A DNA stretch of 64,000 bases from an uncultured Mycoplasmatota bacterium (lineage in GTDB: Bacteria; Bacillota_I; Bacilli_A; RF39; UBA660). Made by a program: the position numbers. Of the stretch, positions 12,001 to 15,000 are shown piece by piece. The stretch covers positions 47,845 through 111,844 of the forward strand of contig CAMMQC010000002.1 of assembly GCA_946498975.1 (NCBI GenBank). The letters run 5' to 3'. The first letter of the stretch is position 1; the number at the start of each line of letters is the position of its first letter.

Positions 12001-15000
12001 CTTTACTAACATCACCTAAATAAAACTCTGTATTAGTAATATTATTTAACTTAGCATTATTTTTAGCATCCCTCACTGCATCTTCCACTACTTCAATACC
12101 AATTACTTTCTTAGCATAGTCACTTATTAAAAGACTAATAGTACCAGTACCACAATATAAATCATAGATAATATTACAATCTAGTTCTTTAACTAAATTA
12201 ATAACTTCTTTATAAATTAAACTAATACCTTCTTTATTTACTTGAAAGAAAGAGTCTTTTCTTACCATAAACTTTTTAGATAGGACATCTATCGTCAATG
12301 AAGAAACACCACTGATTAGTTCATTGTTATAGTATAGAGAACTAACAGTTGATGAGAAAAAATCTTTAATAGATTCTTTATCTTCCCTACCTTCTAATAT
12401 TAACATAAGTCTACCATCTAAAGATTTAATAATCGCTTTAGTTAATTTCTTATGTACTTTAATAAAAGAATTTAAAGAAGCAGTTAAAGTTATAATATTA
12501 CTATCTAATAAATTACATTTATCTATAGGTATTAAATTATTAGTCTCTTCTTCATAATAACCTAACTTATCTCCTTTAATATGAAAAGTTACTTTATTAC
12601 GATAGTTATAACATTTAGTAGAAATTATTTCTAAAGAGTCTAAATTATAATTTGTATATTTAGAGAAAATATTCTTAACAGTATTCTTTTTAAACTCTAA
12701 CTGCTCATCATAATTTAAATGCCCTATCTGGCAACCTCCACAAGTTTGATAATAAGGACAATATTTTACTTTAAGGGTATCACATCTTTTACCTATAGAA
12801 TATCTTTTCTTATCTTTTACTAATTTAATAGAAACTTCTTCTCCTAGTTTTACTTTAGGTATAAAGATAACTTTATTATCAACTTTGGCAATTCCTCTTC
12901 CCATATGGTCATAATCTATTATTTTAACTAACATAAACTTCACCTACTAATAGATTACTACAAAATCTATAAATGGAAAAGCTTTTTAATATCGTATAAA
13001 TGGAAAAGCTTTTTAATATCGCTTGACATTTACGATACAACGTTGTATTATAAGAAAACAAAAAGGAGAAAAGGTTGAAAAAAATATCTAAAAAATAAAC
13101 ACGCAAAAAAGATTTTGTGAAAAAACGCAAAAATTCGTGTTCATAATAATTATCGACAAAAATAAATGAGTTGTGGCATTGACTGTAAATCTCCACTTGA
13201 AAACTTGAGAATTGTTTTACCAAAGTTAAGGTTTCGTGCTCATAAAAGTAGAATAATAATCTACAGGCTACACTTATTTGTACTCTAGAGATAAACGACA
13301 CATATAATTATACGGGTTTAAGAAACATTTCTTAACACCACTCACCTCACCGTGCTCTGTAGTTTACCAACAACTGATAGTTATTATAAATGATTTTAGG
13401 TATAAGTCAACTTTTCATCTCAATTTGTGCCTTTCAGAGGACTGGAAGGACGATAGAAAGGAATGTTAGAGAATTATGTTTGAAAAAAATGATATTAATG
13501 ATTTGTTTTTAGCAAGTATCAGTGTTTTATATCCTGATGATGATAAAGTAACTGATAATGTTGGTAATTTTTTTAGTTTAAGTATGGCAGGATATGGATA
13601 CTTAACAATTAAAAAAAAAGAAGGAGAAAAATACATTGATTTAAATGATACTAAAGTAGAAATAACTACTACTAGAAATCCAAATGAAACTAGTTATACA
13701 ATAGATTATATGGAACCATTAAGTAGGTATTATACTGGTGATGGTAAAAGGAAAAAGTTTTTTAGTAATAGACAAGCGATAAAAATAGCAGAAACATATT
13801 ATGATGAATTTCATAAAGATGAAGAAGAAGCACAGAAAGTAAAAGTTTACAAATAATTGAGGTTAAATGCCTCTTTTTTTGTTTTAATAATATATCTATT
13901 TCAGCAATACTAGAAATGAAAAAGATGTTTTTTTATATTTTTTCCTATTACAGGACTGAAAAAGATAAAAATGCTTGATTTTCACCAGTTTTTATCGTCA
14001 TATGATAAAAGTGGGGAAAATATGATAAGATTAAGCAATATTTAGGTAATTATTTTATAGTCTTTATATAATTTAATAAAAAATATTATTTTGGTAATAC
14101 TAAAAGTGAAATGAGGTGAAGTTATGTCTTCTAAGCTAGCAGATGAGATTAAAAAAGCTTTTGGAAGCTCCACTGATTTAATTGTTAGACCTTTTATTAT
14201 CGATAATAGAGAAATTACGCTTGTTATGAGTGAAGTTTTAGGTAGTTCTAGTTATGTTAATGATTTTATTTTAAGACGTCTTTTAACTATTAAGTTTCAA
14301 AGTGATGATATAGGAAGTGAACTTCTTAACTTTATTCCTACTAATAACGGAAAGATATTAAATAAATTAAGTGATATGACTGATTATATTTGTATGGGCT
14401 TCGCTCTTATTCTTTTTAGTGATACGGAAGCTATTGCAATTGAAGCAAGGGCTACTGTTGATAGAGGTATCCCTATTGTTAATAATGAAGCTAGTATAAC
14501 AGGTAGTAAAGATGCCTTTAATGAGAATTTTAATACTAATGTAGGACTTATTAGAAGAAGAATAAGAGACTGTAATTTATATGTGGATGGTATGTTTGTG
14601 GGAAAGTCTAGTAAGACTAAGATAGGTATTTTATATATGAATAATATCGCTATTAAGAAAAATGTTGATAATATTAAGAATAAACTTAAAAAAATTAATG
14701 TTGATGGTATCTTAGACACAGGTAATTTAAAAAGTTATTTAGATAGTAAGACTAACTTTTTCTTTCCAACAATTACATCAACTGAACGTCCTGATAAAGT
14801 CGCTCAAGCTTTACTTGAAGGTAAGATTGCCATAGTTTCTGATAACTCTCCTTTTGTTTTAATTACTCCTACTTTCTTTGTAGATTACTTACATACTAGT
14901 GATGATTATTATGAGAAAGCGATTAATACTTCTTTTATTAGAATAGTAAGATTTCTTGCTTTTATCATCGCAATATTTACTCCTGCCCTATACATTGCCC

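What the first reader, a model, noticed from the sequence alone, without database searches (positions are those of the whole stretch)
12968..13475. Twin palindrome-containing 27-bp repeats fused to a consensus promoter and a ~420-nt untranslated leader
Two perfect copies of TATAAATGGAAAAGCTTTTTAATATCG, each with the 10-bp palindrome AAAAGCTTTT, end 1 bp before a near-perfect TTGACA-17-TATTAT promoter with an adjacent TG. The next plus-strand ORF (13476, weak SD) is about 420 nt away. The leader is A-rich with several imperfect hairpins (for example GTTTAAGAAAcaTTTCTTAAC at about 13312). This looks like an activator- or repressor-controlled promoter driving either a long regulatory leader or a standalone ncRNA. 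I could not match the leader to any riboswitch class, 6S, tmRNA, RNase P or SRP RNA by eye.
Basis: seen in the sequence. Interest (0 to 1): 0.55.

Follow-up and report, generated by a model that had tools for sequence, protein, structure and literature searches.

The report
Transposase-less IS110 element carrying bridge RNA
The supposed 420-nt "leader" is a 399-bp mobile-element remnant of the IS110 family that has lost its transposase but kept its guide ("bridge") RNA gene on the opposite strand; it sits exactly between a gene's ribosome-binding site and its start codon, so it is a new member of a known kind rather than a new regulatory RNA.

Summary
In detail: there are two perfect tandem 27-nt copies, a TTGACA-17-TATTAT promoter and a 424-nt gap to the ORF.

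Relatives carry the same promoter about 25 nt from the same ORF, with a strong Shine-Dalgarno (SD) site. The window instead has a 399-bp insertion (13073-13471) between the SD and the ATG.

The insert is a transposase-less derivative of an IS110-family insertion sequence, and it lies on the minus strand. It keeps three things:
- the left end, with its own promoter (TTGACT-16-TATAAT);
- a ~200-nt bridge-RNA gene;
- the right end.

The evidence for this:
- A profile built from 37 transposase-linked left ends hits the insert at E=5.6e-35.
- The RNA structure is supported by covariation (88% of cells paired, against 32-44% in slid controls).
- The loop segment AACCUU equals the element's right end, and the two co-vary in four variants (39 of 42 junctions).
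- The loop segment UAUAAUU matches the target CATAATT at six of seven positions.

Copies 97.7-99.7% identical sit at SD/ATG junctions of eight different genes, in MAGs representing at least five other species.

The second 27-nt copy is a strain-specific duplication; every relative has one copy.

All components are known: IS110 bridge RNA, IS900-like SD-ATG targeting, and miniature derivatives.

The parts
12968..12994 (.). 27-nt unit, copy 1. This is promoter-upstream sequence shared by the divergent rumA-like gene and the 126-aa ORF, and it is single-copy in all relatives.
12995..13021 (.). 27-nt unit, copy 2. It is a strain-specific tandem duplication found only in the window and L001. It is absent from L003 and L023 (same insertion, same ORF) and from all other relatives.
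13023..13051 (+). Host sigma-70-type promoter TTGACA-17-TATTAT of the 126-aa ORF. It is conserved in relatives (TTGACA/TTTACA-17-TATTAT/TATCAT).
13064..13068 (+). Host Shine-Dalgarno AGGAG. In relatives it lies 8 nt from the ATG; here it is separated from the ATG by the insertion.
13071..13072 (-). Core dinucleotide (TT on the IS strand) at the right-end junction.
   Evidence: Inferred from about 45 family junctions
13073..13471 (-). Body of the 399-bp transposase-less IS110-family element. The left end is at 13471 and the right end at 13073. Copies 97.7-99.7% identical lie in seven other contexts.
13472..13473 (-). Core dinucleotide (TT on the IS strand) at the left-end junction.
13474..13478 (+). 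Host TTATG, the left target including the ORF start codon. AATTATG is natively present in the empty sites of L012-L015.
13383..13410 (-). Element-internal promoter TTGACT-16-TATAAT (11 of 12). It has a positional counterpart in several family members (for example TTGAGC-17-TATAAT in L041). The predicted start is about 13375, right at the first stem of the bridge RNA.
13170..13375 (-). Bridge-RNA gene of about 200 nt. The closing stem pairs 13374-13367 with 13177-13170, and a U-rich tract follows. A profile of transposase-linked left ends hits 13371-13156 at E=5.6e-35.
13317..13337 (-). Hairpin B of the bridge RNA. It is the stem with the strongest covariation in the family.
13306..13312 (-). 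Putative left-target guide UAUAAUU. It matches six of the seven positions of the top strand of target plus core, CATAA-TT; most family members have CAUAAUU.
13229..13234 (-). Left-donor guide AACCUU. It equals the element's own right end plus core (CAACC-TT). Guide and end co-vary across the family in four variants.
13104..13132 (-). 29-nt block TTTTGCGTTTTTTCACAAAATCTTTTTTG in the right-end part. It is identical in three diverged miniature elements. Function unknown.
13075..13098 (+). By-product mini-ORF TTG AAA AAA ATA TCT AAA AAA TAA (MKKISKK*). It now occupies the start-codon position behind the host SD.
   Evidence: read from sequence
13476..13856 (+). Host 126-aa ORF. It has no Pfam family and is confined to Candidatus Onthousia-like Bacilli MAGs. 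It is intact.

Best explanation
Window 13073-13471 is a non-autonomous (transposase-less) derivative of an IS110-family insertion sequence, oriented on the minus strand.

It consists of:
- the complete non-coding left end, with its own sigma-70 promoter and a ~200-nt bridge-RNA gene;
- about 100 bp of right end, fused directly to the left end;
- no recombinase ORF, which has been deleted.

Like its full-length relatives, it is inserted at a TT core between the reverse complement of a host start codon (CAT-AA-TT) and the reverse complement of the host SD. On the host strand this places it between SD and ATG.

Shown:
- homology to transposase-linked left ends;
- the element's ends;
- the RNA structure, by covariation;
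- co-variation of the donor guide with the right end;
- the empty site in relatives;
- multiple insertion contexts.

Inferred:
- The bridge RNA is transcribed from 13410-13383 towards the host promoter.
- The element was moved in trans by a recombinase from a full-length relative with the same guides and ends.
- The host ORF is now transcribed through 400 nt of antisense bridge-RNA sequence. Its SD is diverted to a 7-codon mini-ORF, so its translation is probably reduced.

The twin 27-nt repeat is an unrelated, recent tandem duplication upstream of the host promoter.
For: 1. Empty sites. In 16 relatives the same promoter and SD lie directly before the same ORF (GGAGAAATAATT-ATG); the rumA-ORF spacer is 115 nt against 532 nt in the window.

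2. Discrete, multi-context element. The same 399 bp, 97.7-99.7% identical, lies between an SD and the ATG of seven other, unrelated genes. These are in five species-representative MAGs and two further contigs.

3. Link to IS110.
- A BLAST hit falls in the stretch 5' of an annotated IS110-family transposase in C. tagluense pCM022-180. Alignment is collinear (E=2e-15) and both ends match (CATAATT...CATTCCTTTC and TTTCAACCTT).
- A two-block motif from that alignment found 52 metagenome loci. In 42 of them it lies about 130-170 nt upstream of an IS110-type transposase ORF, 38-97% identical to the C. tagluense one.
- Pfam PF01548 and PF02371 were confirmed on two representative transposases.
- An nhmmer profile of 37 transposase-linked left ends, built without the window, hits 13371-13156 on the minus strand at E=5.6e-35. 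It is the only hit in 64 kb.

4. RNA structure.
- 32 pairs in 6 helices; 88.3% of cells paired against 32-44% when partners are slid.
- 23 pairs have changes on both sides; 0 of 500 shuffles reach the covariation score.
- Cognate strands form stronger duplexes than non-cognate ones: stem C -9.9 against -5.3 kcal/mol, stem A -7.3 against -4.6.

5. Guides.
- The loop segment A(AC|AU|GA|CA)CUU equals the right end CA(AC|AT|GA|CA)C-TT in 39 of 42 distinct junctions, with four co-varying variants.
- (C/U/A/G)AUAAUU matches the invariant target CATAA-TT.

6. Same architecture in diverged miniatures. L061 and L060 are about 75% identical to the window element, share the same deletion junction, and keep the bridge-RNA stems through compensatory changes.

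7. Plausible helper. One full-length relative with an identical transposase sits in at least 7 SD/ATG contexts and has the same guides and the same right-end terminus; its left-end start differs slightly (CTAAAC against CTCTAAC).

8. Contig breaks. Metagenome contigs break at k-dependent offsets (-52 nt for k=55, -27 nt for k=31). This places a repeat boundary at 13478.
Against: - No recombinase gene is in the window or in any locus holding this miniature element (tblastn). No full-length partner more than 76% identical in the left end was found, so mobilisation in trans is inferred, not shown.
- No expression data exist. Single-sequence folding of the bridge-RNA region is no better than shuffles (z=-0.04); all support for the structure is comparative.
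- The right-hand guides (RTG, RDG) could not be assigned. The SD side of the target has no fixed register (0-5 nt), which simple base-pairing recognition does not predict.
- The left junction in the window is 2-4 nt shorter than expected from the closest matching empty site (GGAGAA-AA against GGAGAAAT-AA). It also differs between strains.
- The two blocks used to collect the family are invariant by construction.
- The 'species' are MAGs, so mis-binning cannot be excluded. The eight different flanks stand regardless.
Confidence: 0.9

Rival explanations
1. One reading: a regulator-controlled promoter drives a long cis-regulatory leader (riboswitch or attenuator) or a plus-strand ncRNA ahead of the 126-aa ORF.
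For: - The promoter is real and conserved.
- The plus strand of 13058-13480 folds better than shuffles (z=-2.77).
- The host promoter must transcribe through the region, since no plus-strand terminator-like site occurs before 13859.
Against: - The 400 nt are absent from all relatives without the insertion.
- The same sequence sits in front of seven unrelated genes.
- It is homologous to IS110 left ends on the other strand.
- Rfam gives no hit even at E<=10.
- The plus-strand fold signal is what the complement of a structured RNA would give.
Confidence: 0.03
2. An inert fossil: a one-off internal deletion of an IS110 copy that can no longer move. On this reading the bridge RNA is decaying and the other copies reflect shared ancestry or recombination rather than transposition.
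For: No helper recombinase was found in the window or next to any copy. No near-identical full-length partner was found.
Against: - Eight different insertion contexts hold copies 97.7-99.7% identical, with unrelated flanks.
- Diverged miniatures (L060, L061) share the deletion junction yet keep the bridge-RNA stems through compensatory changes, and keep both left-hand guides.
- The promoter is intact at 11 of 12 positions.
- Engineered mini-ISs with intact ends move when transposase and the non-coding RNA region are supplied in trans (PMC11187229).
Confidence: 0.06
3. An exapted regulator: the insertion, or the antisense bridge RNA it produces, has been co-opted to control translation of the 126-aa ORF. 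The 27-bp promoter-proximal duplication would be a compensatory adjustment.
For: - The ORF remains intact in all insertion-bearing strains.
- Transcription is convergent, with about 200 nt of perfect antisense overlap.
- The duplication occurs only in insertion-bearing strains.
Against: - Identical elements sit in front of unrelated genes in other species, so no gene-specific adaptation is visible.
- The duplication is missing from two of the four insertion-bearing assemblies.
- There are no functional data.
Confidence: 0.04
4. A self-splicing intron (group I-like) in the 5' UTR that restores SD-ATG spacing at the RNA level.
For: The size (about 400 nt), the precise placement between SD and ATG, and the G at the 3' boundary first suggested this.
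Against: - No Rfam intron hit at E<=10.
- No P1/IGS complement to the 5' flank could be found by reading the sequence.
- Both ends and the interior are those of IS110 elements that carry a transposase.
Confidence: 0.01

Closest known systems
IS110-group insertion sequences with bridge RNA (IS621; Durrant et al. 2024, PMC11208160; Hiraizumi et al. 2024, PMC11208158)
   Same: - No terminal inverted repeats, and a dinucleotide core on both sides.
- A long non-coding left end upstream of the recombinase gene encodes a structured RNA.
- That RNA has two loops of analogous layout. Its left guides have the sequence of the top strand of left target plus core and of left donor plus core (for the rule; for this family).
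- The full-length relatives checked (two representatives) encode DEDD_Tnp_IS110 plus Transposase_20.
   Different: - The window copy has no recombinase gene.
- The RNA promoter lies wholly inside the left end rather than being split across the RE-LE junction.
- The core is TT rather than CT.
- The left guides lie 3' of the loop hairpins. From memory, IS621 has them on the 5' side; this was not checked.
- The right-hand guides could not be assigned.
- Rfam has no model that matches.
IS900 / IS901 / IS902 / IS116 group (Mycobacterium, Streptomyces): insertion between RBS and start codon
   Same: Oriented insertion between the reverse complement of a start codon and of an SD. The IS900 target motif is CATGNNNNNNTCTCCTT (PMC8141618). 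Here the target is CAT-AA-TT followed 0-5 nt later by CTCC/CCTCC.
   Different: - Different phylum and very different base composition.
- There is no long 'hed'-type ORF on the opposite strand, only 6-7-codon mini-ORFs.
- The insertion point relative to the CAT differs.
- Relatedness of the recombinases to IS900 was not tested.
MITEPpu9, the MITE-like element associated with ISPpu9 in Pseudomonas putida (PMC12288879)
   Same: A short transposase-less element bounded by IS110-family ends. It is present as independent copies and is proposed to use the IS transposase in trans.
   Different: - MITEPpu9 carries the cargo sRNA Ssr9, which is not needed for transposition. The bridge RNA of ISPpu9 lies upstream of tnp.
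- The element here keeps the bridge RNA itself, with its promoter.
- It targets SD/ATG junctions, not REP sequences.
Engineered mini-IS of ISEc11 / IS1111-type elements (Siddiquee et al. 2024, PMC11187229)
   Same: Ends intact and central part replaced. These constructs move when transposase and the non-coding RNA region are supplied in trans. This shows the proposed trans-mobilisation is mechanistically possible.
   Different: They are laboratory constructs with the guide RNA supplied separately. Here a natural element carries its own guide RNA.

Membership tests
IS110 family insertion sequence (autonomous) | Encodes a DEDD/RuvC-like plus Tnp-domain recombinase (PF01548 + PF02371) | tested here: not met
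   tblastn with a family transposase finds nothing in the window or in any locus holding the miniature element. Two representative full-length relatives have both domains. The window copy is therefore a derivative, not an autonomous IS.
IS110-family-derived element | Non-coding left end homologous to the left ends of elements that carry the recombinase | tested here: met
   A profile of 37 transposase-linked left ends hits 13371-13156 (minus strand) at E=5.6e-35. Pairwise alignment to C. tagluense gives E=2e-15. Identity to L064, L072 and L086 is 72-76% over 350 nt.
IS110-family-derived element | No terminal inverted repeats; identical short core flanking both ends; sequence-specific oriented insertion | tested here: met
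   No TIR was found. TT lies at both junctions in about 45 contexts. The only left-flank variants fall in the two host bases before the core (CATACTT, CATCATT, CATTTTT, CATGATT).
Bridge RNA (IS110 group) | Conserved secondary structure with internal loops, supported by covariation | tested here: met
   88.3% of cells paired against 32-44% slid; 23 of 32 pairs change on both sides; 0 of 500 shuffles reach the score; RNAalifold result; cognate against non-cognate duplexes.
Bridge RNA (IS110 group) | Left donor guide equals the top strand of left donor (right end) plus core | tested here: met
   Four co-varying variants (AACCUU, AAUCUU, AGACUU, ACACUU) match the right ends in 39 of 42 distinct junctions. 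The window has AACCUU against CAACC-TT.
Bridge RNA (IS110 group) | Left target guide equals the top strand of left target plus core | tested here: met
   (C/U/A/G)AUAAUU, directly 3' of hairpin B, matches CATAA-TT in all contexts. The target does not vary, so no covariation test is possible.
Bridge RNA (IS110 group) | Right target and right donor guides complementary to core plus right target / right donor | tested here: inconclusive
   AAAUAA fits TT+ATTT left-end starts only. GGAGGUGA would pair with the rc-SD, but the SD register varies by 0-5 nt, and part of that segment was fixed by my search pattern.
Bridge RNA (IS110 group) | Transcribed, and bound by the recombinase | not testable with these tools
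   Only a consensus promoter (TTGACT-16-TATAAT) at a position conserved in the family.
Classical MITE | Terminal inverted repeats and target-site duplication from a DDE transposase | tested here: not met
   No TIRs, and the ends are those of IS110. It is MITE-like only in being short and non-autonomous.
IS900-type target choice | Insertion between the reverse complements of a start codon and an SD | tested here: met
   All left junctions end in CAT-NN-TT. An rc-SD lies 0-5 nt after the core in 32 of 42 right junctions, and weaker SDs occur in several others. Only 3 of 41 AATTATG sites in the window are start-like.
Riboswitch, leader or any known Rfam RNA | Match to a curated covariance model | tested here: not met
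   0 hits at gathering threshold in 64 kb. 0 relevant hits at E<=10 in 3.5 kb and in 451 nt.

The most novel reading that the evidence does not exclude
Transposase-less, bridge-RNA-only elements may form a persistent, self-guided hitchhiker lineage. On this reading they keep their own promoter, guide RNA and ends under selection, as the compensatory changes among the window, L061 and L060 copies suggest. They borrow recombinases from related IS110 elements and have recently spread across several gut Bacilli species. Their target loop would combine a 7-nt match to AATTATG with an SD-mimicking GGAGGUGA segment that reads the ribosome-binding site at a flexible distance. If so, the family homes to translation-initiation regions genome-wide.
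Probability: 0.35. Interest if true: 0.6.

Novelty: new member of a known kind. Interest (0 to 1): 0.35.

Why it matters
For annotation: a consensus promoter followed by a long, structured 'UTR' in front of an intact gene can be a miniature IS110 element. Gene callers and Rfam do not see it. Its ncRNA lies on the opposite strand.

For IS110 and bridge-recombinase biology, the family offers three things:
- A natural series of about 50 left ends with a validated structure and a co-varying donor guide.
- A target (SD-spacer-ATG) whose SD half is not read in a fixed register.
- Natural recombinase-less donors that carry their own guide RNA. I did not find these described in the searchable literature.

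For the host: insertion uncouples the SD from the ATG and creates convergent transcription. The gene nevertheless stays intact in several strains, and one diverged copy sits in front of a translational GTPase gene. Insertions at start codons therefore appear to be tolerated.

Tried and rejected
- Rfam at three scopes: nothing.
- Other copies in the window: none (blastn; nhmmer).
- Coding potential. The 125-aa minus-strand ORF over the element has only 3 relatives among 5.8 billion proteins, all of them the same element. The 40-aa plus-strand ORFs carry nonsynonymous differences between copies. Rejected as genes.
- Group I intron. There is no IGS/P1 complement to the AAGGTT flank. An R-like motif (UCAGAGGACU) lies too close to the 3' end to leave room for P3'/P8/P7'. 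Rejected by reading the sequence and by Rfam.
- IS200/IS605 PATE or omega-RNA. No conserved tetra- or pentanucleotide lies 5' of the element and there are no subterminal hairpins at the ends. This was superseded by the IS110 match.
- Phage origin. No hits in INPHARED, and no hits in IMG/VR with two patterns.
- Autonomous partner. The genome scan with a 22-mer found only miniature copies. The transposase search gave more than 8000 unnamed relatives. The one IS looked up (P0081) shares guides and the right-end terminus, but its left end is only 73% identical.
- Single-sequence thermodynamics. The results are uninformative or misleading: plus strand z=-2.77, minus strand z=-0.41, bridge RNA alone z=-0.04.
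- AAAAGCTTTT as an operator. It is not conserved in relatives, and there is only weak enrichment.
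Full report
**Observation.** The sequence is as described.
- Two perfect 27-nt copies lie head to tail at 12968-12994 and 12995-13021.
- TTGACA-17-TATTAT follows at 13023-13051.
- The next plus-strand ORF (126 aa) starts at 13476.
- Rfam finds nothing in the whole window at gathering thresholds. It finds nothing relevant at E<=10 in 3.5 kb or in 451 nt.
- The window is 25.5% G+C. The 'leader' between 13150 and 13470 is richer, at 31-36%.

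**The leader is an insertion.** I looked up the 126-aa protein, which has no Pfam family, and its homologues in public assemblies. The homologues are 50-99% identical and come from Candidatus Onthousia-like Bacilli MAGs.
- In sixteen loci from relatives, the divergent rumA-like methyltransferase gene and the ORF are only 115 nt apart (213 nt in one lineage).
- In those loci the same promoter is followed by ACAAAAAGGAGAAATAATT-ATG, a short leader with a strong SD.
- In the window, and in three other assemblies encoding the same or a 99%-identical protein (L001, L003, L023), about 400 nt separate the SD from the ATG.

**The 27-nt repeat.** All relatives have exactly one 27-nt unit, including L003 and L023, which carry the insertion. 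Only the window and L001 have two. The 'twin' is therefore a recent tandem duplication. The AAAAGCTTTT palindrome is not conserved either: some relatives have AAAAGTTTT.

**A first hint of a repeat.** Several metagenome contigs begin at offsets that depend on the assembler's k: 52 nt before the ATG for SPAdes, and 26-27 nt for the k=31 Logan assemblies. A repeat whose right boundary lies at 13478 would produce exactly this.

**The insert is a discrete, multi-context element.**
- A 22-mer from it found five loci in five species-representative MAGs: uncultured Bacilli, 'Tenericutes' and Candidatus Coprovivens.
- In each locus the same 399 bp (97.7-99.2% identical) lies between an SD (GGAGG plus 0-5 nt) and the ATG of a different gene, with unrelated flanks.
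- Two more contexts came from contigs on which a spurious ORF over the element had been called.
- In L029 the element separates a CopZ-like gene from a P-type ATPase gene. The homologous site in L027 is uninterrupted (GAGGAGGTTTAATCTATG).

**Identity.** A sensitive BLAST against plasmids gave one weak hit, in C. tagluense pCM022-180.
- The hit falls in the stretch directly 5' of an annotated IS110-family transposase, on the strand opposite to the window's plus strand.
- Read on the transposase strand, that IS begins ...CAT|AATTATATCCATTCCTTTCGC, where CAT is the reverse complement of the ATG of a polysaccharide deacetylase gene.
- It ends ...TTTCAACCTT|TATCTCCTT, the reverse complement of that gene's SD.
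- The window element read on its minus strand begins CATAATTCTCTAACATTCCTTTC and ends TTTTTTTCAACCTT|TTCTCC.
- The interiors align collinearly over 190 nt (E=2e-15).

**The wider family.** A two-block motif from that alignment recovered 52 metagenome loci.
- Three of the 52 are false positives.
- In 42, the motif lies about 130-170 nt upstream of an ORF 38-97% identical to the C. tagluense transposase.
- Two representative transposases have DEDD_Tnp_IS110 and Transposase_20.
- A profile of 37 transposase-linked left ends, built without the window or the other miniature copies, hits the window once, at 13371-13156 on the minus strand, with E=5.6e-35.
- No transposase is encoded in the window or next to any copy of the 399-bp element.

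**The deletion.** Alignment with the closest full-length relatives (L064, L072, L044, L035; 72-76% identical) shows what the miniature retains:
- the whole left end, up to just before the transposase SD;
- about 100 bp of right end.

Two diverged miniatures, L061 and L060 (about 75% identical), share this deletion junction. They also share a 29-nt block that is identical in all three (window 13104-13132).

**Junctions and target.**
- About 45 distinct left junctions read host-CAT-AA-TT-IS. The only variants fall in the two bases before TT (CATACTT, CATCATT, CATTTTT, CATGATT). These bases are therefore host-derived and TT is the core.
- Right junctions read ...CA-NN-C-TT. A reverse-complemented SD (CTCC/CCTC/CCTCC) follows at 0-5 nt in 32 of 42 cases, and weaker SDs follow in several of the rest.
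- One full-length IS with an identical transposase (P0081) occupies at least seven such sites.
- AATTATG is natively present in the empty sites of L012-L015.
- Only 3 of the 41 AATTATG sites in the window look like SD-plus-start sites. The 7-mer alone therefore cannot explain why every insertion is at a start codon.
- This target choice resembles that of IS900, whose motif is CATGNNNNNNTCTCCTT (PMC8141618).

**The RNA.** The family alignment (A3) supports:
- a closing stem (window 13374-13367 with 13177-13170);
- a long-range stem C;
- hairpins D and E.

For these 32 pairs:
- 88.3% of cells are paired, against 32-44% when partners are slid by 1-3 columns;
- 23 pairs change on both sides;
- none of 500 shuffles reaches the covariation score.

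RNAalifold found four of these helices on its own. Cognate strands of stems A and C pair better than non-cognate ones.

**The guides.** Two segments sit in equivalent positions, directly 3' of hairpins B and D.
- CG-n-AUAAUU-AU matches the top strand of left target plus core (CATAATT).
- CG-n-A(AC|AU|GA|CA)CUU-AU equals the right end plus core, CA(AC|AT|GA|CA)C-TT. Four variants co-vary in 39 of 42 distinct junctions. One of the three exceptions is an artefact of my pattern.

This is the rule reported for the left target and left donor guides of bridge RNAs (PMC11208160). In the window the guides are UAUAAUU (13312-13306) and AACCUU (13234-13229). The window's right end is CAACC-TT.

A near-consensus promoter, TTGACT-16-TATAAT (13410-13383, minus strand), occupies the same position as promoters in several family members. 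It would start the RNA at the closing stem. Single-sequence folding is uninformative.

**Mechanism: shown and inferred.**

Shown by comparison:
- the identity and boundaries of the element;
- its orientation;
- the RNA structure;
- the donor guide;
- the target motif;
- the absence of a recombinase;
- multiple recent insertion contexts.

Inferred:
- The bridge RNA is expressed.
- The element is moved in trans by a recombinase from a full-length relative with the same guides and right-end terminus. Engineered mini-ISs behave this way (PMC11187229).
- The host SD now serves the 7-codon mini-ORF at 13075-13098.
- Host transcripts run antisense to the bridge RNA.
- Expression of the 126-aa ORF is reduced.

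Unresolved:
- how the SD side of the target is read; a GGAGGUGA segment 5' of hairpin B is a candidate, but part of it was fixed by my search pattern;
- the right donor guide;
- a 2-4-nt discrepancy and A-run polymorphism at the left junction;
- the identity of the helper element.

**Comparison and novelty.** The components are all known:
- IS110-group elements with bridge RNAs;
- SD/ATG targeting in the IS900 group;
- a MITE-like IS110-family derivative, MITEPpu9 (PMC12288879).

MITEPpu9 carries a cargo sRNA rather than the bridge RNA. I found no description of natural recombinase-less elements that keep their own bridge RNA, but the search was limited. I file this as a new member of a known kind. 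It has some features of interest to specialists and is of practical value for annotation.

Noticed in passing
window 13857-14123; L006-L018 about 3535-4978: Most relatives carry a two-gene module (196 aa plus a 286-aa PF08843 AbiEii protein) between the 126-aa ORF and gerA. The window and L019, L021-L025 lack it, so this intergenic spot is a second presence/absence polymorphism.
   Followed up: no
window about 10100-11700; L001, L006-L019 upstream of the rumA-like gene: The region upstream of the methyltransferase gene varies between relatives (ORF6N, KilA-N, Abi_2, DDE_Tnp_1 transposase, NUDIX/PHP). The window's ORF6N protein (10887-11498) is 203 aa, against 261-295 aa in several relatives, and may be truncated.
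   Followed up: no
window 13104-13132 (minus strand); L061, L060: The 29-nt block TTTTGCGTTTTTTCACAAAATCTTTTTTG is identical in three miniature elements that are otherwise about 75% identical. It is largely absent from full-length right ends; a piece occurs in L035. Function unknown.
   Followed up: partly
L038, right-end junction: Tandem partial copies of the right end (CAACCTT CAACCTT CTTTTTCAACCTT) precede the host CACCTCC. These may be a footprint of repeated recombination at one site.
   Followed up: no
L061 about 1990-2430: A diverged miniature element sits between the SD and ATG of a translational GTPase gene (MKKRNIAIIAHVDHGK...). Insertion at the start of an important gene therefore appears to be tolerated.
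   Followed up: no
L027 about 4590-4750 (minus strand): In Candidatus Coprovivens the element lies just downstream of a tRNA gene 3' end (...GGTTCGAATC...CCA) and a terminator-like hairpin, in front of a 55-aa membrane-protein ORF.
   Followed up: no
window, whole 64 kb: Rfam finds no family at gathering threshold anywhere in 64 kb: no tRNA, rRNA or riboswitch. Nearly all long ORFs from 17 kb onward are on the minus strand.
   Followed up: no
(protein database): More than 8000 protein clusters match the L064-type IS110 transposase at E<=1e-40, most of them on about 1.7-kb contigs (collapsed repeats). This SD/ATG-targeting subfamily is very abundant in metagenome assemblies.
   Followed up: partly
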